Part shown: positions 7,618 to 58,437 of the stretch, in pieces
How positions within the stretch are numbered: position 1 is the stretch's first letter
How the letters are laid out: each line of letters starts with the position of its first letter
DNA from: Candidatus Latescibacterota bacterium
Lineage (GTDB): Bacteria > Latescibacterota > UBA2968
NCBI GenBank assembly: GCA_965116885.1
Contig: OZ220741.1
Coordinates: 918,932 to 982,931 of the forward strand
Length of the DNA stretch: 64,000 bases
Direction: 5' to 3'
The notes under the pieces: generated by a model
Database searches by the model: none
Told to the model about the DNA's origin: nothing
What the model saw: only the letters and a program-made list of their open reading frames with translations
Made by a program: the position numbers and the translations under genes

Positions 7618-7708
7618 GGGACGGCACAGGGGCCGTCCCCTACGGTGATATTGTGCTTTGTTGTAGGGACAACCCCCTGTGGTTGTCCTGCGACCCCCTG
7701 TGGTCGCC
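7618..7708. repeat. REP-like hairpin repeat cluster (gggacggcacaggggccgtcccctacg 7618-7644; inverted tgtagggacaaccccctgtggttgtcc 7661-7687; partial inverted gcgaccccctgtggtcgccc 7688-7708)
   Basis: Read directly from the sequence; same family as at 3923. Confidence 0.85.
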
Positions 7709-42764: not shown

Positions 42765-44006
42765 ATGCAAAAACACACAAAAATCCTTTTATGTCTCGCA
42801 CTGGGATTAACACCTATTCTGACCAGTCTTGCCCATGCACAAACCGACCTGGCACGCGCAGACTTTGATGGCAATCGGAAGGTTGATATTCAAGACTTTC
42901 TCGCATTTGTCGCGGCTTTCGGAAAGACTTCATCGGAGGAAGGTTTTGATAGCAGAATGGACTTTAATGGCGACAACGCCGTTAATATCCAGGACTTTCT
43001 CGCATTTGTCGCGGTTTTCGGTCAATCTGTTGAACTGAAGGACCTGGCCGGTTATCCGGTAGGGGTATCTCTCCAGACAAAGTATTTGACCGATGATGCC
43101 CGGGTATCACTCATCAAAAAAACATTCAGCAGCATAACCGGCGGATGGGAGATGAAGCCGATCTCAACGGGACCTGGCGCCTATGACTGGCGCAGAGCAG
43201 ACGCGCTCGTAGATTTTGCGGAAGCCAACAACATGCAGGTCCATGGGCATACGTTGCTGTGGCACAATACCGTACCTACCTGGATGGAGAACTTCTCGGG
43301 AGACGATGCGGCCTTTGAAGCGGCCATAAAGGAATACATCACAACAGTGGTGCAGCGGTATCGCGGGCGGGTCGTTAGCTGGGACGTGGTCAACGAAGGC
43401 ATTGACGGTAGAGGAAAGGTGCGCGACAACTTATTCAGCCAGCGCATGGGGAATGACTATATCGCCCGCATGTTTCAGTATGCCCGTGAAGCAGACCCCG
43501 ATGTATTGCTATTTTACAACGATTACGGCACATCGCAGCCCTGGGCCCGCGCCAAACGCGCTGGCATGCTAAACATGCTGGACGATTTCCAGACACGCGG
43601 TATTCCCATAGACGGAGTCGGTTTGCAAATGCATATTTCCTACAACTCTCCAGACATCTCGACAATACGAGAAACCATTGACGAGATCATACGACGGGGA
43701 CTCAAACTACACATCTCCGAACTGGACATCCGCATCAACCCCGATGGCGACCTGTCCGAACCGACTCAAGAGCGGCTCGAATTGCAAAAAAAGCGCGTCA
43801 TAGAAATCGTGACAGCTTTCCACCAGGTACCGGAAGCACAGCGGTTTGGCATCACGATATGGGGAATAGCGGACCCGGACACCTGGCTCATACAGGCTGG
43901 CCGAAGTCAGGGCCGTCCCGAATGGCCGCTCTTATTCGATGATCACCTGCAGCCCAAACCGGCTTACGATGGATTTGTCGAAGCACTTCAGAACAAAGGA
44001 TTTTAG
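42765..44006 (+). CDS. glycoside hydrolase family 10 endo-1,4-beta-xylanase with N-terminal dockerin-like repeat pair
   Basis: A signal peptide, an N-terminal ADFDGNRKVDIQDFLAFVAAFG...MDFNGDNAVNIQDFLAFVAVFG, and the GH10 catalytic motifs WDVVNEG (acid/base) and HISELDIR (nucleophile). Confidence 0.85.
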   Translation: MQKHTKILLCLALGLTPILTSLAHAQTDLARADFDGNRKVDIQDFLAFVAAFGKTSSEEGFDSRMDFNGDNAVNIQDFLAFVAVFGQSVELKDLAGYPVGVSLQTKYLTDDARVSLIKKTFSSITGGWEMKPISTGPGAYDWRRADALVDFAEANNMQVHGHTLLWHNTVPTWMENFSGDDAAFEAAIKEYITTVVQRYRGRVVSWDVVNEGIDGRGKVRDNLFSQRMGNDYIARMFQYAREADPDVLLFYNDYGTSQPWARAKRAGMLNMLDDFQTRGIPIDGVGLQMHISYNSPDISTIRETIDEIIRRGLKLHISELDIRINPDGDLSEPTQERLELQKKRVIEIVTAFHQVPEAQRFGITIWGIADPDTWLIQAGRSQGRPEWPLLFDDHLQPKPAYDGFVEALQNKGF

Positions 44007-44254: not shown

Positions 44255-45097
44255 ATGGCAACCGCCGAAACACCCATCGCGATGCATGAACCATCCCTCT
44301 ACGAAACAACCAGACGGGCAGACTATCTCGACACCCTCGCCGACATTGACGACCGTCAAATCGCCCAATTTCACGAACAGGGATACCTCGCCATTCAACG
44401 GGCATTCACGCCGCAACAAATCGAATCCGCGGGCCAGGCCATGTGGGATCTCATCGACGGCAAAAGCCAGGACTTCAAAGGCGTAATGGCCGAAGCCGCC
44501 AAACGCGGGCAATTTTCCGAACTCACAGGCAAAGCGCGCCGCGACAGCGTGCGTAAAATCTGGAAATTCGTCGATTATGACACCCGGCTCAACGACCTCG
44601 CCCACGACCCCAACATCCTCTCCGTACTCTCCCGCATGATGGACGACACACCCGTACTCTTTCAGGACATGGGACTGATCAAACCCCCGCACATCGGCCG
44701 CGAAAAACCCTGGCATCAGGACTGCGCGTACTTCAACTATCCCGTCGGCACCACCGTCGTCGGCGTATGGATCGCCATCGATGCCGCTACAGAAGAAAAC
44801 GGATGCTTGCACATCATCCCCGGCTCACACCGCGAAGGACCCATCCCGCACTTCAGGCGACGCGACTGGCAAATATGCGACACCGACGTCGCCGTCCCCA
44901 GAAACGTCACCGTCCCCCTCAACCCCGGCGGATGCCTCTTCTGGCACGGCATGACCCATCACGGCAGCCCAACCAACCAATCCGCCCACCGCCGCAGGGC
45001 ACTGCAATACCACTACCGCCCCGAAAGCACCGTGGAAATGACGGCAAAAGAACGCCTCGCCATCTACGGCGGCGACGAACTCGGCGTAACGTACTGA
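44255..45097 (+). CDS. phytanoyl-CoA dioxygenase (PhyH) family Fe(II)/2OG oxygenase, canonical HxD
   Basis: PWHQDCAYF, VWIAIDAATEENGCLHIIPGSHRE and LFWHGMTHHGSPN. Confidence 0.75.
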   Translation: MATAETPIAMHEPSLYETTRRADYLDTLADIDDRQIAQFHEQGYLAIQRAFTPQQIESAGQAMWDLIDGKSQDFKGVMAEAAKRGQFSELTGKARRDSVRKIWKFVDYDTRLNDLAHDPNILSVLSRMMDDTPVLFQDMGLIKPPHIGREKPWHQDCAYFNYPVGTTVVGVWIAIDAATEENGCLHIIPGSHREGPIPHFRRRDWQICDTDVAVPRNVTVPLNPGGCLFWHGMTHHGSPTNQSAHRRRALQYHYRPESTVEMTAKERLAIYGGDELGVTY

Positions 45098-45106
45098 ATC
45101 ACTTAT

Positions 45107-45964
45107 TTACAGCTCACTCTTATCTTTCACCTGCGGCTCTCTCGGGAGCGGCACTTGCGGTTGCACAATGCGGCGGCGTTGGGGGGTGAGGCGTGCCAGC
45201 AACTCTGGCGACGGCTGGTACCCGTGCCGAAAATTCCCCCACGAAGGCCCGTAGCGATACACCGCGATACGCCGCGTCCCCGCATTCATCCGCTTTGCCG
45301 ACCCGTGTGAAAGTCCATCCACAAAAACCAGCGCATCGCCCGCCTTCATAAACACCTCAATCGCGCCCACCGTCCCATCCACAGACCTGTCCTCTCCCAT
45401 CCTCTGCTCATCGTAAAACGGATGTCTGAAATTCGCCTTGTGGCTCCCCGGAATCAACATCGTCCCCCCATCGCCCGGACCGATATCCGTCAGCGCCATC
45501 AGCACATTCACCTGCCCGCACATAAACCGCCCCCCGTGATACCGGAACTGATTCCTCATAATCGGCGGAAACCCGCCCGAATGCAACCCAATCGCCTCCC
45601 CCGGCTCGCGAAAATTGGCCAAACACTCATCGATAAACATCGGACCGTGATGGTGATCAAACGTCCCCTCCGCCCCGATAAAAAGCTTCACATGCTCAAA
45701 CCACGACGGATGATCAATCAGCTTCTCAAACGGCTCGCCCGCCTCGTAAATCTGTTGATAATTGATCCCCGACGTCACATCGCCATACGCATGACCCTGA
45801 ACATACCCATACCACTCCCCCGGCTTCAGCGCGGGAATCTCATCCAAACAACCGTTCAACGCCTGAACCTCATCCGTCGTCAGCGCCCCCTCCATAAGCA
45901 GGTACCCGCGCAGGTCAAACAAATAAACATCGAGATCTGGAACCATCGTCACGCTCCTTGTCAA
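45107..45964 (-). CDS. PhyH-family protein, non-canonical (no HxD/E)
   Basis: PGSHK and HGS motifs are present, but the motif-1 region reads GLHSGGFPP...RYHGGRF. Confidence 0.7.
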   Translation of the reverse strand: MTRSVTMVPDLDVYLFDLRGYLLMEGALTTDEVQALNGCLDEIPALKPGEWYGYVQGHAYGDVTSGINYQQIYEAGEPFEKLIDHPSWFEHVKLFIGAEGTFDHHHGPMFIDECLANFREPGEAIGLHSGGFPPIMRNQFRYHGGRFMCGQVNVLMALTDIGPGDGGTMLIPGSHKANFRHPFYDEQRMGEDRSVDGTVGAIEVFMKAGDALVFVDGLSHGSAKRMNAGTRRIAVYRYGPSWGNFRHGYQPSPELLARLTPQRRRIVQPQVPLPREPQVKDKSEL

Positions 45965-46030
45965 TATTAGCTATGCATATCGCAAGTTATGATAAACTGT
46001 TATAGGCTTAAAAGCCATAGCATTTTTGGC

Positions 46031-46170
46031 GGGCGACCACAGGGGGTCGCCCCTACAATCTGGATCGCGGCTAACACATTGCCGCGATGACGGGCGGGCA
46101 CGGGGGCACCGCCCCTACAACAACGGGTGGACAGGGCATACGTACGGGCGAGGCATGCCTCGCCCCTACC
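46031..46170. repeat. REP-like hairpin repeat cluster: gggcgaccacagggggtcgcccctaca 46031-46057, gggcgggcacgggggcaccgcccctaca 46092-46119, gggcgaggcatgcctcgcccctacc 46146-46170, plus intervening hairpin atcgcggc...gccgcgat
   Basis: Read directly from the sequence. Confidence 0.85.
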
Positions 46171-46246
46171 AACGTAATATTCTTTCTTGCTTCATTCTCA
46201 TTCAAACCATATAATTTGGAAACACAGTAAAAATGGACATACAACT

Positions 46247-47098
46247 ATGGAACAACAAAACCCCAAAAACATGCGTGAACGCACGCCTGAAACCGTTCGC
46301 GGTGAAGAAACCGAGGAAGAGCAGATCATCGAGGAAGAAACCCTTGAAGAATCGCAACCCCTGCTCGAAGAACGGCTCACCCTGCGGAAACCGCTCGGCC
46401 TATTATTTGACCTGGGCGACACCCTCTTGACATACCTCAAATTCGACCCAGAAGCCGGGCACGCGGCCACACTAAACATCGCCGACAACCCATTGGGCTA
46501 CACAGTCGAAGACATTGACAACCACATAAAAAGACTCAACCGCGACCTCATACCCCGCAGGGAAAAAGCACAGGTAGAATTTCATCCCCACATCATCCAG
46601 CGCCACGTCTATGAAGCCCTGCACATCACCTTTGACCGCACCCCTGAAGAAGTCGAACGCGTATTCTGGCGTGCGGCGACATCGTGGCAGCCCGAACCGG
46701 GCATAGAATACGTCCTCGAAATATTGCGAAACAAAAACATCCCAATGGGCATCGTCAGCAACGCCGCATTTTGCGGCAACACATTGATATGGGAAATCGA
46801 ACAACAGGGCCTCGCGGACTACTTTCGCTTCCTCATGTCCAGCGCCGACTACTGGGTACGCAAACCCCATCCCCTCCTGTTGGAAACCGCCGCCGCCAAA
46901 CTCGGATACAAACCCGCCGACTTATGGTATGTGGGCAACTCGCCTCAATACGATATCGCAGCCGCGCACAACGCCGGCATGGGCGCCGTATGGTACAACC
47001 GTCTGGACGACCCCCTCGACGGACCCGACCCCCATGTCGAAATCAAAAGTTGGCGCGAATTTTTAGAATTAGTTGAAGGCTTTTATTTAAAAATATAA
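46247..47098 (+). CDS. HAD-superfamily hydrolase with acidic N-terminal extension
   Basis: Motif I LLFDLGDTLL (DxDxT-like), motif III K, and motif IV in VGNSPQYDIAAAHNAG. The N-terminal ~50 aa are rich in E. Confidence 0.7.
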   Translation: MEQQNPKNMRERTPETVRGEETEEEQIIEEETLEESQPLLEERLTLRKPLGLLFDLGDTLLTYLKFDPEAGHAATLNIADNPLGYTVEDIDNHIKRLNRDLIPRREKAQVEFHPHIIQRHVYEALHITFDRTPEEVERVFWRAATSWQPEPGIEYVLEILRNKNIPMGIVSNAAFCGNTLIWEIEQQGLADYFRFLMSSADYWVRKPHPLLLETAAAKLGYKPADLWYVGNSPQYDIAAAHNAGMGAVWYNRLDDPLDGPDPHVEIKSWREFLELVEGFYLKI

Positions 47099-47112
47099 AG
47101 GAGAGAAACACG

Positions 47113-48348
47113 ATGTCCGATTTTTCAATCGCAGAAGCTGTACACAACGCATTTCAAAACCACGCCATCGTCGATATACACACCCACCTCTATCCCGCCT
47201 CCATGGGCGAACTCTACCTGGCCGGACCCGACGAACTCCTCACCTATCACTATCTCAAAGCCGAATGCTCGCGCATGTTGCCCGAAGGCGTTGCGGTTGA
47301 CACCTTTAACAACATGCCCACCACAGAACAGGCCGACATCATCTGGCAACAACTCTTCGTCGGCAACAGCTCCCCAATATCCGAAGCGCAACTCGGCGTC
47401 GTCACCGTCATGAACCGCCTGGGACTAAACCCGCGCGCAGAAAACCTGTCCGAATTTCGCGCCTTCCACAACTCTAAAACACCCGAAGAATACACCGACA
47501 TGGTCTTCGAAAGCGCTGGCGTCGCCAGTGTCTATATGACCAACGACCCCCTCGACGACACCGAAGGTCCCATGTGGCAACAGGGCATCGACATCGACCC
47601 GCGCTTCAGAGCAGTCCTGCGCCTCGACAGCGCGCTCATGAACTGGCCCGCCCCCGCCGACAAACTCCGCGCCCTAAGATACGATGTAGAAGAAAGCCTA
47701 TCCGACAAAACCTTTGCGGAACTGCGGCGCTACCTCACCGACTGGGCCCAAAAAATGGACGCTCGATACATGGCCATATCGCTCCCCCCGGACTTTGCCT
47801 ACCCCTCTGAAGACAGCATCTCACAAATGATGGGCAACGTCGTATATCCCACAGCCCGGGAACTCCAGATCCCCTCGGCAATGATGATCGGCGTCACCCG
47901 GCAAGTCAACCCCATCCTCAAAGACGGCGGCGACAGCCTGGGCAAATGGGACATCGCCAACCTCGAACGCATCGCACGCGACTGGCCCGACGTCAACTTC
48001 CTCATCACCCTCCTCTCGCGCGAAAACCAGCACGAACTCTGCGTCACGGGCCGCAAATTCCCCAACGTACACCCCTTTGGCTGCTGGTGGTTCTTGAACA
48101 ACCCCAGCATCATCCGGGAAATAACAGCCGAACGCCTCGAACTCCTCGGCACCAGCTTTGTACCCCAGCACTCCGACGCCCGCATCCTGGACCAGCTCCT
48201 CTACAAATGGACCCACTCCATCGGCGTCATCGCCCCCGTGTTCATCGACAAATACGAATCGCTTCGCGCTGCGGGCTGGCCCCTCACTCCGGCAGACATC
48301 CAGCGCGACATCGCCACCATGTTTGGCGGCGGCAAATTACTGGACTAA
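47113..48348 (+). CDS. uronate (glucuronate) isomerase UxaC-like amidohydrolase-fold protein
   Basis: The N-terminus IVDIHTHLYP...TYHYLKAE parallels UxaC IFDYHCHLPP...GDHYKWRAM, and the C-terminal PFGCWWFLNN parallels UxaC GSGWWFND. Confidence 0.5.
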   Translation: MSDFSIAEAVHNAFQNHAIVDIHTHLYPASMGELYLAGPDELLTYHYLKAECSRMLPEGVAVDTFNNMPTTEQADIIWQQLFVGNSSPISEAQLGVVTVMNRLGLNPRAENLSEFRAFHNSKTPEEYTDMVFESAGVASVYMTNDPLDDTEGPMWQQGIDIDPRFRAVLRLDSALMNWPAPADKLRALRYDVEESLSDKTFAELRRYLTDWAQKMDARYMAISLPPDFAYPSEDSISQMMGNVVYPTARELQIPSAMMIGVTRQVNPILKDGGDSLGKWDIANLERIARDWPDVNFLITLLSRENQHELCVTGRKFPNVHPFGCWWFLNNPSIIREITAERLELLGTSFVPQHSDARILDQLLYKWTHSIGVIAPVFIDKYESLRAAGWPLTPADIQRDIATMFGGGKLLD

Positions 48349-48367
48349 TGGCAACTGGATCGCGGAC

Positions 48368-48394
48368 GGGACGGCACAGGGGCCGTCCCCTACA
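48368..48394. repeat. REP-like hairpin repeat gggacggcacaggggccgtcccctaca
   Basis: Read directly from the sequence. Confidence 0.85.
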
Positions 48395-48412
48395 ACATGG
48401 CAGGATTTATTG

Positions 48413-48940
48413 ATGCATAAGATGACAACTAAAACCTTCTGGATTGCGGTCGCCCTCCTCCTCTTCTCCGGATCGGGGTTGTGTGCGCCGTATAAAATCT
48501 ATATCTTTATGGGAGAAACCTGTCCGGTCTCGCGGCATTACACCTTGACACTCAAAGAACTGCACGCAGAATACGCATCTGAAAAACTCGAATTCATCGG
48601 CGTATTCCCCAATCGACTCTCCACCCCAGCCACGATTGCCGCGTTCAAAAAAAAATACGCCTTGCCATTCACCTGCATCGGGGATTCCATCCACACATGG
48701 GTGAACCGACTGGGCGCAACGATCACGCCAGAAGTCGTCGTTGCCGACACATCGAACACCGCCATCTATCGGGGTCGCATTGACAACACCTTTGCGGATT
48801 TGGGCAAAAGACGCCGCATCGTCACCGCCCACGACCTCACAGATGTACTGAAAGCCCTCAAGAACGAAAAACCCCCGGTATTTCGCCAGACCCAGGCCAT
48901 TGGCTGCATCATAACCTCATGGCAAAACACAAAGGAATAA
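48413..48940 (+). CDS. secreted thioredoxin-fold (redoxin-like) protein
   Basis: Signal peptide MHKMTTKTFWIAVALLLFSGSGLCA, then IYIFMGETCPVSRHY, a single-Cys redoxin-like motif. The track ORF start at 48158 is an upstream extension across a REP. Confidence 0.45.
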   Translation: MHKMTTKTFWIAVALLLFSGSGLCAPYKIYIFMGETCPVSRHYTLTLKELHAEYASEKLEFIGVFPNRLSTPATIAAFKKKYALPFTCIGDSIHTWVNRLGATITPEVVVADTSNTAIYRGRIDNTFADLGKRRRIVTAHDLTDVLKALKNEKPPVFRQTQAIGCIITSWQNTKE

Positions 48941-48944
48941 AGCC

Positions 48945-50483
48945 ATGCGACCACTTGCCCTCTCCATACTCGCGATCCTCCTCGCCGTTACTTCGCCACG
49001 CGCGGAAGCCCCCACCTTTAGCAAAGACGTCTCGTCCATCATATACAACAACTGCACATCGTGCCATCGAGACGGTGAAATAGGGCCTATGCCCCTCACA
49101 AATTACAGCGAAATCTCGGCTTATGCAGACATGATCAAACACGTCACAGAAACCCAGTACATGCCCCCGTGGAAACCCGATTACAACTACAGCCAGCACA
49201 TCGGCGCAAGAACACTCACCAAAACAGAAATCAACACAATATCAAACTGGGTCAACGCCGGCTTTCCCCAGGGCGACATCGCCCTTGAAGCCCCCATGCC
49301 GGAATTTCCAACAGGCTCTGTACTCGGCACCCCCGACCTCGTACTCACCATGGCAGAACCCTTTACCATCCGCGGCGACAATGAAGACCAGTACCAGGTC
49401 TTCGTCATCCCAACCCACCTCACAGAAGACCGGGAAGTCGAAGCCGTTGAATTTCGACCCGGCAACAGCAGAATCGTTCACCACGCCCTCATCGGCGCCG
49501 ACATCACGGGCACTGCCCGCCAAAGAGACCTCGAAACCCCGGAATACGGTTACGAATCCTTTGGTGCATTCGGCGCGCCAACCGCTGTTGTCCTCCCTGG
49601 ATATACACCCGGTGCAAAACCCCCGATATATCCCAAAGGCGTTGGACACATACTGCCCAAAAACTCCGACTTACTGATCCAGGTACACTACGCACCCTGG
49701 CCACTTGCAGAATCCGATCAATCCAGCATCAACATATTCTTCAAAAAAGAACCCATCGAAAGAGAAGTGGGTTTTATCACCTTCGCACCGCTCACCACGG
49801 ACGGTGAAAGACTGAGCAGACTATTCAGGGTCCTGCTCGGAGAAGAGCGACACGGCGGCACCCCCGTAGAAAAAATCCAAATTAGCGATATCTTTATCAT
49901 CCCGAAAGATCGAATCAAAACATTTCACACGACACTCTTCATCAATCGGGACATCAGCCTCCTGTCCATCTATCCGCACATGCACTTGTTGGGCAAATCC
50001 TGGGAAATCTATGCCACGGACCCACAGGGCAACCGCACCAACCTCATCCGTATTGAAGACTGGGATTTTAACTGGCAGGGCAATTACACCTTCACCCAAT
50101 ATCAAAAAATAACTGCGGGATCCCAAATCCACGCCATTACCACCTACGACAACACCACAAACAACCCGCTCAACCCCAACTATCCCCCCCGCCAATCGAC
50201 CTGGGGCGAAAAAACCACCGATGAAATGCTCCTGGCTGTCATGGAATACGTACCCTACCGACAAGGCGATGAAAACATCGCCCTCACCGTTGGCCGGGGC
50301 GGCGAAATAAGCATAGACTTCAACGGCAATGGACAAAAGGACTTTGCCGACTTCCTCCTATTCGTCCAGAACTTTGGCCTGAGCCGAAGCGACACCAGCT
50401 ATCAGCGTCACTTTGACCTCAACGAGGATGGACACATCAACTTTACCGACTTTATCATCTTCGCCAATCAATATGCGCAATAA
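48945..50483 (+). CDS. secreted PSCyt1-type cytochrome c domain protein with putative type-2 copper monooxygenase-like HH/HxH/M motifs and C-terminal dockerin-like repeat pair
   Basis: A signal peptide and a heme-binding CTSCH with the PSCyt1-like context IIYNNCTSCHRDGEIGPMPL...YMPPW...NWVNAGFP. Downstream are IVHHALIGA and YPHMHLLGKSW plus Met-rich TDEMLLAVMEY. C-terminal DFNGNGQKDFADFLLFVQNFG...FDLNEDGHINFTDFIIFANQY. Confidence 0.6.
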   Translation: MRPLALSILAILLAVTSPRAEAPTFSKDVSSIIYNNCTSCHRDGEIGPMPLTNYSEISAYADMIKHVTETQYMPPWKPDYNYSQHIGARTLTKTEINTISNWVNAGFPQGDIALEAPMPEFPTGSVLGTPDLVLTMAEPFTIRGDNEDQYQVFVIPTHLTEDREVEAVEFRPGNSRIVHHALIGADITGTARQRDLETPEYGYESFGAFGAPTAVVLPGYTPGAKPPIYPKGVGHILPKNSDLLIQVHYAPWPLAESDQSSINIFFKKEPIEREVGFITFAPLTTDGERLSRLFRVLLGEERHGGTPVEKIQISDIFIIPKDRIKTFHTTLFINRDISLLSIYPHMHLLGKSWEIYATDPQGNRTNLIRIEDWDFNWQGNYTFTQYQKITAGSQIHAITTYDNTTNNPLNPNYPPRQSTWGEKTTDEMLLAVMEYVPYRQGDENIALTVGRGGEISIDFNGNGQKDFADFLLFVQNFGLSRSDTSYQRHFDLNEDGHINFTDFIIFANQYAQ

Positions 50484-50488
50484 AAAAA

Positions 50489-50546
50489 GGGCAACCACGA
50501 AGGTTGCCCCTACAACAATGGGACTGCACAGGGACCGTCCTCTACG
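50489..50546. repeat. two degenerate REP-like hairpin repeats (gggcaaccacgaaggttgcccctaca; ggactgcacagggaccgtcctctacg)
   Basis: Read directly from the sequence. Confidence 0.6.
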
Positions 50547-51420
50547 ACACAACCCGCGTTGTCTCGCCATCGGACGCCAGCAGGGGTAGCTGCCCCCCGT
50601 GGTGAACCCCGGGACCGTACAAAACCGCCTGTTGTTCAGGCGTCAACTCACTCACCCAATCGCCATAGCGTTCCTCGGGCGTAAAATACTTACCCACGGC
50701 GCGAGCCGCTGCGCGAGAAGCGTATTTATAAAGCACAGAACGCCGCTCCCCATCGCTGCGCCACGGCAGCGTACCATGCGTCATCGTCTCCGCAAAAAAG
50801 AGCACATCGCCCGCTTGCATCACCGGTTGATAAACCAGCCCCATATCATCCTCTACGGAACGCACCTCAGCGGGTGTCGGCTCCGCAGTCTTATGACTCC
50901 CCGGCACACAGGCAAACCCCCCATCGCCCTCATTCACATCCGTCAACTGCCACGCCACAGTAATACCCCGACAGAAAATCTTCCCATTCTGCTGGTGATA
51001 CCACACCGACTGGCTAAACGGCTCCCCGCCACCGTGCAGTGTATGCCCCTCTGCACCCTTGTGCGCGCTGATCAACAGCGGCCCGTGATCCAGGCGAAAA
51101 CCCTTGCCGCTAAACTCATTCAAACGACTCACCACAACCGGATGAACCAGCAACTTCCGAAACGGCTCGCGATAGGGTTCGGGCCAGCCCAACATACCCG
51201 TAAGCTCGCGCCTACCCTCTTTACCCGTAAGCGCGGACGACCCTCGCGCCAGACCCCCATCTTCAATAGACCGCGTCCTGATCTCATCCCCATAGTGATC
51301 AATCGCATCATTGCACGCCTTGACCTCATCTGCGGACAATGCCCCCCGCACGACCAGATAGCCGCGCAGGTCAAAAAAGTACTTCTCCTCTTCACTCACT
51401 GTATAAAGATTGTTGCCCAT
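50542..51420 (-). CDS. PhyH-family protein, non-canonical (no HxD/E)
   Basis: ITVAWQLTDVNEGDGGFACVPGSHK and ETMTHGT are PhyH hallmarks, but the motif-1 region reads HTLHGGGEPF...WYHQQNGK. Confidence 0.7.
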   Translation of the reverse strand: MGNNLYTVSEEEKYFFDLRGYLVVRGALSADEVKACNDAIDHYGDEIRTRSIEDGGLARGSSALTGKEGRRELTGMLGWPEPYREPFRKLLVHPVVVSRLNEFSGKGFRLDHGPLLISAHKGAEGHTLHGGGEPFSQSVWYHQQNGKIFCRGITVAWQLTDVNEGDGGFACVPGSHKTAEPTPAEVRSVEDDMGLVYQPVMQAGDVLFFAETMTHGTLPWRSDGERRSVLYKYASRAAARAVGKYFTPEERYGDWVSELTPEQQAVLYGPGVHHGGQLPLLASDGETTRVVS

Positions 51421-51443: not shown

Positions 51444-52301
51444 CTACCCCTCTATCCGCACGCTCCCATCCTCACAGACCTCCAGATACGGCACGCGGCC
51501 TTTGTGATTGGAATAGGGACCATACATAACCGACAACTGCTCGGGCGTCATATCCTCGACAATCTCTCGATCCCAATAAATCTCCGGCGGCGACACCTCC
51601 TGAGAAGGACCGCCCCGCGCACACGTGCGCCCCGTGTATTTGAACAAAATGGACCGCCGCGTCGTATCCAACTTCCACGGCGTTGCGCCGTGTGCTTGCG
51701 CGCTATCCATAAAAAAGACGACATCGCCAGCCTCCACCACCGGCTGCTTAATCAAACCCATATCGTCATCTCCAGTACGCACGCCACCTGGCATCGGAAA
51801 CATCGCCTTGTGACTCGAAGGCACACAGGCAAACCCACCCATCCCCTCTTTGCAATCGTGCAATTGCCACGCCACAGTCACACCGCCAACCCAGGTCTTG
51901 CCATTTTGATGGTGATACGCGACATGCGGGCGATGCGGCTCGCCATTTCCGTGCATCGTATGGCCCGCCGTACCCTTATTACTCACAATAAACATCGGAC
52001 CGTGATCCAGCCGAAACCCTTTATCGCACATCACATTGAGATACTTCACCAGCACCGGGTGTGCCAGCATCTCCCGGAAAGGTTCACAATCCGGTTTTGG
52101 AAATTCCAGAATACCGGGCAACATAGGACGCCCCGTACCGGCAAAAGCGACCGACTCCCTCGCCGTTGAACCGCCGACCTGAACCCGGTCCCAGTAGCGA
52201 TCCACAATATCATTCGCCCGCGCAACCTCTTCCTTTGACAACACGCCTTTCACGACGAGGTATCCCGTCAAATCCCAGAAATATCGCTCGCGCGCATCCA
52301 T
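51444..52301 (-). CDS. PhyH-family protein, non-canonical (no HxD/E); close paralog of 50542..51420
   Basis: VTVAWQLHDCKEGMGGFACVPSSHK, with HTMHGNGEPH...AYHHQNGK in the motif-1 region. Confidence 0.7.
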   Translation of the reverse strand: MDARERYFWDLTGYLVVKGVLSKEEVARANDIVDRYWDRVQVGGSTARESVAFAGTGRPMLPGILEFPKPDCEPFREMLAHPVLVKYLNVMCDKGFRLDHGPMFIVSNKGTAGHTMHGNGEPHRPHVAYHHQNGKTWVGGVTVAWQLHDCKEGMGGFACVPSSHKAMFPMPGGVRTGDDDMGLIKQPVVEAGDVVFFMDSAQAHGATPWKLDTTRRSILFKYTGRTCARGGPSQEVSPPEIYWDREIVEDMTPEQLSVMYGPYSNHKGRVPYLEVCEDGSVRIEG

Positions 52302-54965: not shown

Positions 54966-55775
54966 TCACTCACCATCCTCAATCGACACATCACGCACAT
55001 CATCTGTCCAATCAACCCAGATATCATCTCCCGGGGGTTCTTCCTGAAGCTGGGGCATATCGTTCAGCTTGAAATCGTACAACACCGCCTTTCGGATCTG
55101 CCGCGAATAATTGGCCGACGCCATATGCCCAATGCGGTGGTGCCAGAAAACAATATCGCCGGGTTCGCCATGCGTCTGATATGAATTCTCGTCACAAGAT
55201 TGAAACGCCTCTCTATGCTTCTCCATCCGGGGCAATGGCTCCCTGAGATAGCGCGTCTGGTAATCGAAAAAAAACGTGCGATGGCTCTTAGGCCACACCG
55301 TAAAACCACCGCCATCTTCGGGCACATGATCGATATAACCCACCACTGCAAAATTGAACGCATGGGCATCCACATGCAAATGACGCGGTTGGCGCGGGAC
55401 ATCGCCATAGGGCAACGTACAATAAATACCGCGCACACCTGCAGGCTCTGGAAAATTCCCCTTACCCAGCATCTGTTCAGCAGCACCCCACACAACCGGA
55501 TTCTTTGCCAACAGCTCAATCATCCAGGGCTCTCTGCCCACCTTGCGGTATTGCCAGCGATAACCGCGCTTGTAATTGCTCTTATCCATTGATTCCTCTT
55601 CCGGCTTAATGGGACCGACCCAGGAATCCGGATCATCTTTCTTCAAACTCGGCGGCGGATCGTCCCACAGGCGTTCCCGCGCACGGGCGCACAACTCCGG
55701 ATCCAGAGCGCCCTTCTTCACCAGATAGCCCTCGCGTTTAAAAAAACGGATCTCGTCTTCTGTAAGCACAGACAT
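54966..55775 (-). CDS. PhyH-family Fe(II)/2OG oxygenase, canonical HxD
   Basis: RHLHVDAHAF (H-V-D), VVGYIDHVPEDGGGFTVWPKSHR and VFWHHRIGHMASAN. The start is taken as MSVLTEDEIRFF. Confidence 0.7.
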   Translation of the reverse strand: MSVLTEDEIRFFKREGYLVKKGALDPELCARARERLWDDPPPSLKKDDPDSWVGPIKPEEESMDKSNYKRGYRWQYRKVGREPWMIELLAKNPVVWGAAEQMLGKGNFPEPAGVRGIYCTLPYGDVPRQPRHLHVDAHAFNFAVVGYIDHVPEDGGGFTVWPKSHRTFFFDYQTRYLREPLPRMEKHREAFQSCDENSYQTHGEPGDIVFWHHRIGHMASANYSRQIRKAVLYDFKLNDMPQLQEEPPGDDIWVDWTDDVRDVSIEDGE

Positions 55776-55943
55776 GACTCTCTCCTCTTTTGTGCGAATT
55801 GATACTGTCAATCCAATTATAGGCACTTACCTATCGTGAAAAAAGTATAAAGTGACCTGATACAACAAAAAACCCGGTCTTAATAATGAGACCGGGGAGA
55901 AATTTCATATTTGTAGTGGCGCATTCGAGAAGCCCTTTTCTGT

Positions 55944-58288: not shown

Positions 58289-58374
58289 AGCTTTTCCCTC
58301 CTGTCTCGTTGTGTAAACGTTAAATTATACCACAAGGAGTTCAACGACAACAAAAAAAACCTTCTGGATCGCAC

Positions 58375-58437
58375 GGGACGGCACGGGGGCCGTCCCCTAC
58401 AACATCATGCCGCAATGACGCATGCCTCGCCCCTACA
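58375..58437. repeat. REP-like hairpin repeat gggacggcacgggggccgtcccctaca (58375-58401) plus partial copy cgcatgcctcgcccctaca (58419-58437)
   Basis: Read directly from the sequence. Confidence 0.8.

What the first reader, a model, noticed from the sequence alone, without database searches (positions are those of the whole stretch)
48413..50483. Secreted redoxin-like protein coupled to a cytochrome c (PSCyt1-like) / copper-monooxygenase-like / dockerin-like fusion
Two genes are separated by 4 nt. The first encodes a signal-peptide thioredoxin-fold protein with a single Cys (ETCPVSRHY). The second encodes a 512-aa secreted protein whose N-terminus has the CxxCH heme site in a PSCyt1-like context (CTSCHRDGEIGPMPL...YMPPW...WVNAGFP). 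Further on it has HH (IVHHALIG), HxH (YPHMHLLG) and Met-rich segments, reminiscent of the CuH and CuM sites of PHM/DBH-type copper monooxygenases, and it ends in the dockerin-like module. A heme c electron-entry domain fused to a putative mononuclear copper oxygenase on a secreted, anchorable protein suggests an extracellular oxidative enzyme (compare lytic polysaccharide monooxygenase (LPMO) or PHM logic) next to a xylanase and uronate isomerase.
Basis: partly seen in the sequence, partly recalled or inferred. Interest (0 to 1): 0.55.

Follow-up and report, generated by a model that had tools for sequence, protein, structure and literature searches.

The report
Bacterial copper oxygenase with built-in cytochrome
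Two coupled genes in a Latescibacterota genome encode a secreted thiol-redox protein and a secreted enzyme that joins a cytochrome c to a two-copper monooxygenase of the type animals use to amidate peptide hormones and make noradrenaline. The pair belongs to a very large bacterial family that public annotation does not recognise as such and that my literature searches did not find described.

Summary

- **Gene A (48413-48940)** is a signal-peptide thioredoxin-fold protein.
- **Gene B (48945-50483)** starts 4 nt later. It encodes signal peptide, mono-haem cytochrome c, a two-domain PHM/DBH-type copper monooxygenase core, and a type I dockerin.
- **Copper site.** All six PHM copper ligands align in a profile comparison (HH...H and HxH...M). 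They are about 97-100% conserved in 362 relatives. The 31 best fold matches of the AlphaFold2 model are all PHM or DBH.
- **Substrate.** PHM's peptidylglycine-binding residues are not conserved, so the substrate is something else.
- **The pair is one unit.** The redoxin is adjacent in 63 of 80 species-level genomes from at least four phyla. It is fused to the enzyme in 34 of the 150 best cluster representatives.
- **Neighbours.** The xylanase and other neighbours are shared only within Latescibacterota.

- Gene A is not single-Cys; a second cysteine, C165, is invariant.
- The PSCyt1 label is unsupported.
- The protein is not Met-rich.

The family has at least 7,886 clusters at 50% identity. 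It is annotated only as redoxin, cytochrome c or hypothetical. Substrate and redoxin role remain unknown. I rate it a new variant of a known kind, interest about 0.6.

The parts
48368..48397 (+). Intergenic G+C-rich hairpin followed by CTACAACA, 25 nt upstream of gene A. One copy of a repeated element.
   Evidence: Fold. Repeat count. Alignment A4. The copy is conserved in relative L009.
48413..48940 (+). Gene A: secreted thioredoxin-fold thiol-redox protein, 175 aa, PRX_like1/TlpA-like.
   Evidence: Pfam AhpC-TSA 28.6 bits, above the gathering score of 26. AF2 pLDDT 90. Foldseek best hits 2ywo/2cvb/3u5r/2ywi. Profile vs PDB E 1e-17.
48521..48532 (+). Gene A active-site motif C37-P-V-S40 at the N-cap of helix 1 (CxxS variant of CxxC).
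   Evidence: C37 is invariant. Position 40 is Ser, Thr or Ala about twice as often as Cys in the family.
48905..48907 (+). Gene A invariant distal Cys165 ('AIGC').
   Evidence: The same Cys is conserved in the solved homologues 2ywi, 2cvb and 3u5r.
48945..50483 (+). Gene B: 512-aa secreted cytochrome c + PHM-like copper monooxygenase + dockerin.
48945..49010 (+). Gene B signal peptide (MRPLALSILAILLAVTSPRAEA).
   Evidence: Direct reading of the sequence. No signal-peptide predictor was available.
49014..49280 (+). Mono-haem class I cytochrome c domain (residues 24-112). CxxCH at 49053-49067; axial Met73 at 49161-49163.
   Evidence: C37, C40, H41 and M73 are invariant. Cytochrome_CBB3 E 3.7e-5 for the domain alone. 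33 of 41 members hit it.
49335..49790 (+). CuH (electron-transfer copper) jelly-roll domain, about residues 131-282. H179/H180 at 49479-49484; Q246-V-H248 at 49680-49688.
   Evidence: hhalign aligns them to PHM H107/H108/H172. Foldseek. PF01082 scores above its gathering score in relatives P0345 and P0277.
49860..50264 (+). CuM (catalytic copper) jelly-roll domain, about residues 306-440. H345-M-H347 at 49977-49985; E427-M428 at 50223-50228. Family signature motifs WDFNWQG (50061-50081) and YDNTxxNPxNPNxPP (50145-50189).
   Evidence: Cu2_monoox_C 24.6 bits, above the gathering score of 23, for the domain alone. hhalign aligns to PHM H242/H244/M314. Invariance.
50313..50480 (+). Type I dockerin module with two Ca-binding repeats.
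   Evidence: Pfam Dockerin_1 26 bits, above the gathering score of 22.9. PDB sequence hits to cellulosomal dockerins, E 5.9e-5.
50489..50517 (+). Hairpin plus CTACAACA element just after the gene B stop. It also acts as a terminator-like hairpin for the convergent gene.
   Evidence: Fold -15.3 kcal/mol, z -3.3. Terminator scan. Repeat family.

Best explanation
Genes A and B form one functional unit. It is the split form of a widespread bacterial enzyme built from three redox modules: a thioredoxin-fold dithiol protein, a c-type cytochrome, and a PHM/DBH-type two-copper monooxygenase.

**Proposed mechanism**
1. Both proteins are exported by Sec signal peptides (read from the sequence).
2. Haem is attached covalently to C37/C40 of B, with H41 and M73 as axial ligands (inferred from invariance).
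3. Two coppers bind as in PHM: CuH to H179/H180/H248 and CuM to H345/H347/M428 (inferred from alignment and fold).
4. The haem c replaces ascorbate as the one-electron donor to CuH.
5. Electrons cross to CuM, where O2 is activated and a C-H bond of the substrate is hydroxylated (by analogy with established PHM/DBH chemistry).

**Substrate.** It is not a glycine-extended peptide, because PHM's carboxylate-binding residues are replaced by hydrophobic or aromatic ones.

**Localisation.** The C-terminal dockerin is an interchangeable localisation or interaction module. The same position holds a T9SS sorting domain in Bacteroidota, and EF-hand, CBM4_9, PKD or TPR modules elsewhere. This points to action at or beyond the cell surface.

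**Role of the redoxin (least certain step).**
- About 40%: it acts on B in the periplasm as a dedicated assembly or priming factor. It would keep the CxxCH cysteines reduced for haem attachment, or handle Cu(I).
- About 30%: it is a two-electron dithiol feeder into haem c.
- The remainder covers peroxide handling and substrate tethering.
For: **Identity of B**
- The Foldseek top 31 PDB hits are all PHM/DBH (E 8e-14 to 4e-10, target TM 0.57-0.65 for PHM).
- hhalign of the family profile against verified rat PHM gives probability 90.6% and E 1.3e-6, with all six copper ligands in register.
- The ligands, CxxCH and M73 are conserved in 97-100% of 362 homologues.
- Cu2_monoox_C scores above the gathering score for the C-terminal domain alone. 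PF01082 scores above the gathering score in relatives.
- Dockerin_1 scores above the gathering score.

**Unity of A and B**
- The genes are 4 nt apart.
- An A homologue lies on the same strand next to B in 63 of 80 species-representative genomes of Latescibacterota, Verrucomicrobiota and Bacteroidota, and also in KSB1.
- A is the only widely conserved neighbour.
- 3 of 3 A homologues chosen blind are followed by a B homologue.
- 34 of the 150 best 50%-identity cluster representatives are fused as redoxin-cytochrome c-PHM. Two of these (P0277, P0293) carry the redoxin domain C-terminal to the PHM core instead, and one protein holds two complete units in tandem. The five N-terminally fused sequences read keep the same CPx[S/C/T] and ...GC motifs.
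- Fused genes in Planctomycetota have no conserved neighbours, which suggests a self-contained enzyme.

**Substrate differs from PHM**
- PHM R240, N316 and Y318 align to Y343, L430 and V432. These positions are hydrophobic or aromatic across the family.

**Swappable C-terminal modules**.
Against: - No biochemical data exist. Haem and copper binding, O2 use and hydroxylation are all inferred.
- The whole-protein Pfam scores for Cu2_monoox_C (21.4 vs 23) and Cytochrome_CBB3 (20.4 vs 27) fall below the gathering scores.
- The CuH half has no Pfam hit in the window protein.
- The family profile finds no PDB sequence by HMMER.
- The AF2 model is only moderately confident (pLDDT 79) and is weak around M73 and residues 422-425.
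- In Bacteroidota, B carries a T9SS export tag and A does not. An electron-feeder role for A therefore cannot hold everywhere.
- A fused 'assembly factor' would be unusual.
- About 20% of loci lack an adjacent A.
Confidence: 0.75

Rival explanations
1. Polysaccharide-oxidising enzyme. This is a substrate-level variant of the best explanation and overlaps with it. The cytochrome-wired copper core would hydroxylate or oxidise a glycan or other cell-wall polymer at the cell surface, working beside dockerin-tagged glycoside hydrolases. The logic parallels LPMO plus cellobiose dehydrogenase.
For: - B carries a dockerin, and a dockerin-tagged GH10 xylanase lies 5 kb away.
- Bacteroidota members carry T9SS sorting domains.
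- One fused member has a C-terminal CBM_4_9 carbohydrate-binding module (P0360).
- From general knowledge, the host phyla are polymer degraders.
Against: - No CAZyme is a conserved neighbour outside Latescibacterota.
- Fused Planctomycetota genes stand alone among unrelated genes.
- Most members have no CBM.
- Other accessory modules (TPR, Kunitz, FGE-sulfatase, EF-hand) point to other partners.
- There is no histidine brace, so it is not an LPMO.
Confidence: 0.2
2. Envelope redox or stress module acting as an oxidase rather than a monooxygenase. Electrons from thiols (the redoxin) would pass through haem c to the coppers and on to O2 or H2O2. The function would be thiol oxidation, peroxide removal or metal or oxidative stress defence, with no organic substrate hydroxylated.
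For: - The redoxin is fused or adjacent throughout the family.
- Gene A passes the AhpC-TSA gathering score.
- In KSB1 and Verrucomicrobiota the pair follows an ECF sigma factor, an anti-sigma factor and a small protein with weak LTXXQ/Metal_resist (CpxP/Spy-like) hits. An ECF sigma cluster occurs in about 10 of 89 loci.
- MsrA and DinB genes lie next to one pair.
Against: - Gene A lacks the peroxiredoxin PxxxTxxC motif (direct reading).
- The LTXXQ hits are below threshold.
- The ECF association covers only about 11% of loci.
- From established knowledge, PHM-type sites are tightly coupled and do not turn over O2 without substrate.
- Strict retention of the full CuM site and of family-specific pocket motifs (WDFNWQG, YDNT..NP.NP) argues for a bound substrate.
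Confidence: 0.12
3. Non-catalytic double jelly-roll. The middle region would be a PNGase F-like or CBM-like binding module attached to an electron-carrier cytochrome, and the His/Met motifs would be coincidental.
For: - The PHM fold belongs to the same Pfam clan as PNGase F (PMC8812541).
- Weaker Foldseek hits include cupins, capsid proteins and glycan-binding proteins.
Against: - All six copper ligands align to PHM and are 97-100% conserved in 362 sequences.
- The 31 best structural hits are PHM/DBH, separated from the next class by about 4 orders of magnitude in E-value.
- Both Pfam halves of the copper monooxygenase family score above threshold in family members.
Confidence: 0.04
4. A true bacterial peptidylglycine alpha-hydroxylating monooxygenase that amidates secreted peptides.
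For: PHM is the closest solved relative by fold and profile.
Against: - The PHM residues that bind the peptide C-terminal carboxylate (R240, N316, Y318) are replaced by Y/W/A/L/F, L/F/I and G/P/F/I. At none of these positions do PHM's residues R240 or N316 appear among the five commonest residues; Y318's tyrosine recurs in only part of one of the three sequence sets.
- No lyase (PAL/NHL) partner or precursor-peptide gene is conserved nearby.
- None of PHM's disulfide cysteines is conserved.
Confidence: 0.03

Closest known systems
Peptidylglycine alpha-hydroxylating monooxygenase (PHM, catalytic core of PAM; PDB 1PHM, 1SDW, 4E4Z)
   Same: - Same two-jelly-roll fold (Foldseek E about 1e-13).
- Identical ligand sets in conserved sequence contexts: VHHxL, QVHY, HxHxLGK and DEM.
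- The Gln preceding the third CuH histidine is retained (Q246 = PHM Q170).
   Different: - Bacterial rather than eukaryotic.
- N-terminal covalent haem c domain instead of dependence on soluble ascorbate.
- No conserved disulfides.
- Substrate-carboxylate residues R240, N316 and Y318 are absent.
- Extra family-specific motifs (WDFNWQG, YDNTxxNPxNP).
- C-terminal dockerin or T9SS tag.
- Obligatory thioredoxin-fold partner.
Dopamine beta-hydroxylase, tyramine beta-monooxygenase, MOXD1/2 (DOMON + PHM-like core; PDB 4ZEL)
   Same: - Same copper core (Foldseek ranks 5 and 17).
- Also carries an extra N-terminal domain ahead of the catalytic core (my knowledge of DBH architecture).
   Different: - The N-terminal domain here is a class I cytochrome c with CxxCH, not a DOMON domain.
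- No dimerisation domain.
- Only about 15% identity.
Lytic polysaccharide monooxygenases with cytochrome electron donors (for example cellobiose dehydrogenase), recalled from general knowledge
   Same: The logic is shared: a secreted copper oxygenase supplied with electrons by a haem domain, sometimes carrying CBM or anchoring modules.
   Different: - Unrelated fold and copper site. There is no N-terminal histidine brace; the mature B protein starts PTFSK.
- Two copper sites rather than one.
- The haem is c-type and fused in cis.
PRX_like1 (cd02969) thioredoxin-like proteins TTHA0593 (2CVB/2YWO), GK (2YWI), SMc02350 (3U5R), and the more distant TlpA/ResA/CcmG/StoA
   Same: - Gene A is homologous (profile E 1e-17 to 7e-13; Foldseek E 8e-12).
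- It shares the cysteine at the helix-1 N-cap, the cis-Pro 'TP', the Y-x-G-[RQ]-x-D motif and the C-terminal 'IGC' cysteine.
   Different: - Gene A has a signal peptide.
- It has CxxS (CxxC in a minority of relatives) instead of the CNHC seen in 2ywi and 2cvb.
- It is tied to the cytochrome-copper enzyme.
- The solved relatives have no assigned function. ResA/TlpA-type CxxC is not met in the window protein.

Membership tests
Copper type II ascorbate-dependent monooxygenases (PHM/DBH/TBM; Pfam PF01082 + PF03712) | Two consecutive jelly-roll domains (PHM fold) | tested here: met
   AF2 model (pLDDT 79). The Foldseek top 31 PDB hits are all PHM/DBH, with 320-355 aligned columns in most hits (up to 435 for one DBH chain).
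Copper type II ascorbate-dependent monooxygenases (PHM/DBH/TBM; Pfam PF01082 + PF03712) | CuH site: HH plus a distal H | tested here: met
   H179/H180/H248 align to PHM H107/H108/H172. They are conserved in 358-361 of 362 homologues.
Copper type II ascorbate-dependent monooxygenases (PHM/DBH/TBM; Pfam PF01082 + PF03712) | CuM site: HxH plus a distal Met | tested here: met
   H345/H347/M428 align to PHM H242/H244/M314. They are conserved in 359-361 of 362 homologues.
Copper type II ascorbate-dependent monooxygenases (PHM/DBH/TBM; Pfam PF01082 + PF03712) | Pfam models reach their gathering scores | tested here: inconclusive
   PF03712 scores 21.4 bits (below 23) for the whole protein but 24.6 (above 23) for the domain alone. 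PF01082 has no hit in the window protein, but scores 31.3 and 30.9 (above 30) in family members P0345 and P0277.
Copper type II ascorbate-dependent monooxygenases (PHM/DBH/TBM; Pfam PF01082 + PF03712) | Binds two Cu and hydroxylates a C-H bond with O2; ascorbate as reductant | not testable with these tools
   Requires purified protein. The fused haem c suggests that ascorbate is replaced.
PHM proper (EC 1.14.17.3) | Residues binding the peptidyl-glycine carboxylate (R240, N316, Y318) | tested here: not met
   They align to Y343, L430 and V432. At none of the three positions do PHM's residues R240 or N316 appear among the five commonest residues; Y318's tyrosine recurs in only part of one of the three sequence sets.
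Class I c-type cytochrome | CxxCH haem-attachment motif and a distal Met ligand | tested here: met
   C37, C40 and H41 are conserved in every homologue whose N-terminus is present, and M73 in 360 of 362. Apparent haem-less members are N-terminally truncated gene calls.
Class I c-type cytochrome | Pfam cytochrome c model at its gathering score | tested here: inconclusive
   Cytochrome_CBB3 scores 24.4 bits for the domain alone, below the gathering score of 27. 33 of 41 members match at E<0.01.
PSCyt1 (PF07635, planctomycete cytochrome c) | Match to the PF07635 model | tested here: not met
   No hit at E<=10 for the isolated haem domain, and none among 41 family members at E<=0.01.
Type I dockerin (PF00404) | Pfam model above the gathering score; two Ca-binding F-hand repeats | tested here: met
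   26 bits, above 22.9. The repeats are DFNGNGQKDFAD and DLNEDGHINFTD. PDB dockerin hits.
Type I dockerin (PF00404) | A cohesin partner in the same genome | not tested
   Only 64 kb of the genome is available and no cohesin search was made.
Thiol-disulfide oxidoreductases of the TlpA/ResA/CcmG type | Thioredoxin fold with cis-Pro loop | tested here: met
   AF2 pLDDT 90. Foldseek hits to ResA, StoA and DsbE at E 1e-5 to 1e-6. T105-P106 is invariant.
Thiol-disulfide oxidoreductases of the TlpA/ResA/CcmG type | CxxC active site | tested here: not met
   The window protein has CPVS. In the family, position 40 is Ser, Thr or Ala in about two thirds and Cys in about one third of members.
PRX_like1 (cd02969; TTHA0593-like) | Sequence homology plus a conserved N-cap Cys and a C-terminal 'IGC' Cys | tested here: met
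   Profile E 1.2e-17 (2ywi) and 5.7e-17 (2cvb), with both Cys aligned. The motif description of PRX_like1 is in PMC3514251.
Peroxiredoxin (AhpC/TSA) | PxxxTxxC peroxidatic motif | tested here: not met
   The sequence before C37 is YIFMGET-C, with no Pro at -7 and no Thr at -3 (direct reading). The Pfam AhpC-TSA score itself passes (28.6, above 26).
Lytic polysaccharide monooxygenase | N-terminal histidine brace after signal-peptide cleavage | tested here: not met
   The predicted mature N-terminus is PTFSK, and the fold is PHM-like.

The most novel reading that the evidence does not exclude
The redoxin, the haem c and the two coppers form a complete, self-contained electron-transfer chain: dithiol to haem c to CuH to CuM. 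This would let bacteria run PHM/DBH-type C-H hydroxylation outside the cytoplasm without ascorbate. The dockerin-, T9SS- and CBM-tagged forms would be a previously unrecognised class of cell-surface oxidative enzymes acting on extracellular polymers or signals. They would be functionally comparable to LPMOs but evolutionarily related to the neuropeptide and catecholamine enzymes of animals.
Probability: 0.2. Interest if true: 0.85.

Novelty: new variant of a known kind. Interest (0 to 1): 0.62.

Why it matters
- **A gap in annotation.** PHM/DBH-type non-coupled two-copper monooxygenases are treated as essentially eukaryotic, ascorbate-dependent enzymes. [quoted passage not shown] Here there is a bacterial family of at least 7,886 clusters at 50% identity that keeps the complete copper site. 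It is wired to a covalently bound haem c and a dithiol protein. Public annotation calls it only 'redoxin', 'cytochrome c', 'T9SS sorting domain protein' or 'hypothetical'.
- **A handle on an open mechanistic question.** How electrons reach CuH and cross the solvent gap of about 11 Å to CuM is unresolved in this enzyme class (my knowledge). A natural haem-CuH fusion would give a spectroscopic handle and a defined protein electron donor for kinetic study.
- **Ecology.** The family is common in Bacteroidota, Planctomycetota, Verrucomicrobiota and Latescibacterota and carries cell-surface targeting modules. It may therefore be an overlooked route of extracellular O2-dependent oxidation.

Tried and rejected
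1. **PSCyt1 label.** Rejected; no Pfam hit even at E<=10.
2. **Direct sequence route to a solved structure.** phmmer found only dockerins and the family profile found nothing. The link to PHM needed profile-profile alignment against a PHM sequence that I recalled and then verified as identical to PDB 4e4z_A, plus fold search.
3. **NCBIfam.** No family matches the core.
4. **Functional link to the GH10, the 411-aa ORF, HAD and PhyH neighbours.** Rejected. These are syntenic only within Latescibacterota.
5. **Haem-less members as a test of the redoxin's role.** The apparent cases are N-terminally truncated gene calls that still contain the MPPW motif, so the test is unavailable.
6. **The 259-aa gene upstream of B in L001.** It does not align convincingly with gene A (27% identity, gapped; none of A's cysteine motifs) and has no Pfam hit.
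7. **Lipoprotein anchoring of gene A.** Only 4 of 116 homologues have a lipobox-like motif.
8. **Conserved partners of the fused Planctomycetota genes.** None found in three loci.
9. **Literature.** Eight full-text searches found no paper describing bacterial cytochrome c-PHM or redoxin-PHM proteins. A further search, for the solved redoxin homologues, turned up nothing on their function. Subscription journals are largely not covered.
10. **afdb50 fold search.** Not available on the machine.
11. **Rfam.** No credible match in 45900-50700.


Full report
**1. What is in the sequence**

The region holds two same-strand ORFs: gene A at 48413-48940 (175 aa) and gene B at 48945-50483 (512 aa). The A stop codon and the B start codon are 4 nt apart, with an AAGGA run upstream of the B start. 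B is the last gene of a run of +-strand genes. A strong hairpin follows its stop codon (-15.3 kcal/mol, z = -3.3), and the next gene converges from the other strand.

The closest public relatives are complete chromosomes of Candidatus Latescibacterota MAGs. B is 96% identical in OZ242320.1, so the window comes from that phylum.

**2. Gene B, module by module**

- *Pfam on the whole protein.* Dockerin_1 scores above its gathering score. Cu2_monoox_C scores just below it (21.4 vs 23 bits). A sub-threshold cytochrome c match (Cytochrome_CBB3) is also present.
- *Pfam on separate pieces.* The C-terminal catalytic half passes the Cu2_monoox_C gathering score (24.6 bits). The haem domain gives Cytochrome_CBB3 at E 3.7e-5. 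No PSCyt1 hit appears even at E<=10.
- *Alignment of 41 homologues down to 47% identity.* Invariant residues are C37, C40, H41, M73, H179, H180, H248, H345 and H347. M428 is nearly invariant.
- *Structure prediction.* An AlphaFold2 model built on that alignment has pLDDT 79 and pTM 0.72. Searched against the PDB, ranks 1-31 are exclusively PHM and human dopamine beta-hydroxylase (E 8e-14 to 4e-10, target-normalised TM 0.57-0.65 for PHM). The next hits are cupins and capsid proteins at E about 1e-5.
- *Ligand mapping.* HMMER alone could not bridge to a solved structure. I therefore typed the rat PHM catalytic-core sequence from memory, confirmed that it is identical to PDB 4e4z_A, and aligned the family profile to it with hhalign. 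The result was probability 90.6% and E 1.3e-6 over 224 columns, with these correspondences:
  - IVHHAL to TVHHML
  - LIQVHY to VLQVHY
  - PHMHLLGK to VHTHHLGK
  - TTDEM to SSDEM

  So H179/H180/H248 correspond to CuH (H107/H108/H172), and H345/H347/M428 correspond to CuM (H242/H244/M314).
- *Wider conservation.* In 362 homologues from three independent searches, each of these residues, the CxxCH motif and M73 is conserved in 97-100% of sequences.

Neither is met.

**3. It is not PHM itself**

The PHM residues that hold the peptide C-terminal carboxylate (R240, N316, Y318) align to Y343, L430 and V432. Across the family these positions are hydrophobic or aromatic. None of PHM's disulfide cysteines is conserved. 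No lyase or precursor-peptide gene accompanies the family. The family has its own invariant motifs in the CuM domain, WDFNWQG and YDNTxxNPxNPNxPP, which probably shape a different substrate pocket (inference).

**4. Gene A**

Gene A passes the AhpC-TSA gathering score and models confidently as a thioredoxin fold (pLDDT 90). Its closest solved relatives are three functionally uncharacterised thioredoxin-like proteins: TTHA0593 (2CVB oxidised, 2YWO reduced), 2YWI and SMc02350 (3U5R). The matches are Foldseek E 8e-12 and profile E 1e-17. These correspond to the CDD group PRX_like1 (motifs quoted in PMC3514251). ResA, StoA and TlpA-type proteins are more distant.

- C37 sits where the nucleophilic Cys of CxxC sits.
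- The second position is Ser, Thr or Ala about twice as often as Cys in the family.
- A distal Cys, C165 in 'AIGC', is invariant. It is also conserved in the solved relatives.

Whether C37 and C165 form the redox disulfide could not be measured because model coordinates are not exposed. Gene A lacks the peroxiredoxin PxxxTxxC motif. It has an ordinary signal peptide rather than a lipobox.

**5. The two genes are one unit**

- *Adjacency.* In 80 species-representative genomes carrying a B homologue, an A homologue lies next to it on the same strand in 63. It is usually upstream and is downstream in 10. These genomes span Latescibacterota, Verrucomicrobiota and many orders of Bacteroidota. The pair also occurs in KSB1.
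- *Other neighbours.* Clustering all neighbouring ORFs shows that A is the only widely conserved neighbour. PhyH, HAD and the 411-aa ORF are shared only among Latescibacterota.
- *Reciprocity.* Three A homologues chosen without regard to context are each followed by a B homologue.
- *Fusion.* An exhaustive search with the PHM-like part found 7,886 cluster representatives at E<=1e-3, and 987 at E<=1e-30. Among the best 150:
  - 87 are cytochrome c-PHM.
  - 34 are single polypeptides combining redoxin, cytochrome c and PHM. Two of these have the redoxin at the C-terminus. One protein has two complete units in tandem.
  - The remainder are truncated gene calls.
- *Same redoxin subfamily.* The five N-terminally fused sequences read keep the CPx[S/C/T] and ...GC motifs of gene A.
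- *Distribution of the fused form.* It is abundant in Planctomycetota (4,399 hits at E<=1e-20). It is annotated only as redoxin, thiol-disulfide isomerase or cytochrome c family protein. It stands alone among unrelated genes.

**6. The C-terminal module is interchangeable**

Several different modules occupy the position after the catalytic core:
- Dockerin in the nearest Latescibacterota.
- T9SS sorting domain in Bacteroidota, KSB1 and some closer relatives.
- A separate EF-hand protein encoded immediately downstream in Verrucomicrobiota.
- EF-hand repeats, CBM_4_9, PKD/Ig, TPR, Kunitz, DUF3471 or an FGE-sulfatase domain in others.

A constant catalytic core with variable localisation or interaction modules suggests work at or beyond the cell surface on lineage-specific targets (inference). 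The GH10 xylanase 5 kb upstream also carries a dockerin. In this organism the two may therefore share an anchoring system, but that is co-localisation, not a conserved functional link.

**7. Most likely mechanism**

*Shown:* domain composition, ligand conservation, fold, gene coupling and fusion.

*Inferred from established PHM/DBH chemistry:* two copper sites about 11 Å apart. CuH receives electrons, and CuM binds O2 and abstracts a hydrogen from the substrate to give a hydroxylated product.

*Inferred from architecture:* haem c is the built-in one-electron donor that replaces ascorbate.

*Role of the redoxin (least certain).* In Bacteroidota B carries an export tag and A does not. The one role that fits both split and fused forms is a periplasmic assembly or priming function. 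This would mean keeping the only conserved cysteines of B, the CxxCH pair, reduced for haem ligation, or handling Cu(I). I put this at about 40%. A catalytic dithiol-to-haem electron feeder fits the fusions well, since they occur in either order and include forms with a CBM. It fits the T9SS forms poorly, so I put it at about 30%. Peroxide handling or substrate tethering through a CxxS mixed disulfide make up the rest.

*Stress link.* In a minority of loci the pair follows an ECF sigma / anti-sigma / CpxP-like cassette. This keeps a stress-linked oxidase reading alive at about 12%.

**8. Novelty**

The kind of enzyme is known, so this is not categorically new. The following all depart from every characterised member:
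- bacterial distribution at this scale;
- the covalent haem c donor;
- the obligatory thioredoxin-fold partner;
- the loss of peptidylglycine-binding residues;
- the cell-surface tags.

Neither NCBIfam nor source annotations recognise the family. Eight full-text literature searches found no description of it, and one recent comparative paper treats PHM as the eukaryotic branch of its clan. The library lacks most subscription journals, so a prior description cannot be excluded. I rate it a new variant of a known kind, with interest 0.62.

Noticed in passing
window 46088-46122, 48368-48397, 50489-50517, 58370-58404 (+); 7659-7700 (-): A repeated intergenic element. It is an 8-bp G+C-rich hairpin whose stem sequence differs between copies with compensatory changes, followed by an invariant CTACAACA. 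There are 5 exact copies of CCCTACAACA and 10 with at most 1 mismatch, against 3.7 +/- 2.0 expected; 0 of 100 shuffles reach 10. Two copies bracket the A-B pair. Four of five lie 25-140 nt upstream of a same-strand gene start. There is no Rfam match. The role is unknown.
   Followed up: partly
window 1-64000: Strong strand compositional asymmetry across the whole window. The + strand has C 31.8% vs G 21.2% (GC skew -0.20) and A 26.7% vs T 20.3% (AT skew +0.14). The sign is the same in genes on either strand. By my recollection of typical bacterial values this is unusually large for a bacterial chromosome.
   Followed up: no
window 42765-44006 (+): The GH10 xylanase carries an N-terminal type I dockerin (residues 32-79, 26.7 bits, above the gathering score of 22.9). 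It is therefore a second dockerin-tagged secreted protein 5 kb from gene B.
   Followed up: partly
window 44255-45097 (+), 45107-45964 (-), 50542-51420 (-), 51444-52301 (-), 54966-55826 (-, not Pfam-checked): An array of four Pfam-confirmed PhyH-family (phytanoyl-CoA dioxygenase-like, Fe/2-oxoglutarate) paralogues, plus a fifth look-alike, surrounds the pair. A similar array occurs in a related Latescibacterota contig (L006). Substrates are unknown.
   Followed up: no
L004 3560-5072; L007 3446-4718; L094 2687-3957: In KSB1 and Verrucomicrobiota the redoxin + cytochrome c-PHM pair sits directly downstream of an ECF sigma factor and one or two small ORFs (an anti-sigma zf-HC2 in L004). In L004 and L007 one small ORF gives weak LTXXQ / Metal_resist (CpxP/Spy-like) hits; the L094 small ORFs were not scanned at that sensitivity. 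In Verrucomicrobiota a 99-aa EF-hand protein follows. This hints at envelope- or metal-stress regulation in those lineages.
   Followed up: partly
proteins P0336, P0360, P0279 (relatives, not in the window): Unusual fusions of the redoxin-cytochrome c-PHM unit. One carries a C-terminal FGE-sulfatase (formylglycine-generating-enzyme-like) domain, one carries a CBM_4_9 carbohydrate-binding module, and one 1,251-aa protein contains two complete units in tandem.
   Followed up: partly
It is conserved upstream of gene A only in Latescibacterota.
   Followed up: no
window 48482-48484 (Cys24 of gene A): Latescibacterota copies of gene A share a conserved G-[LI]-C-A-[PS] at the end of the signal peptide. 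Other phyla lack it, and it does not fit a classical lipobox.
   Followed up: no
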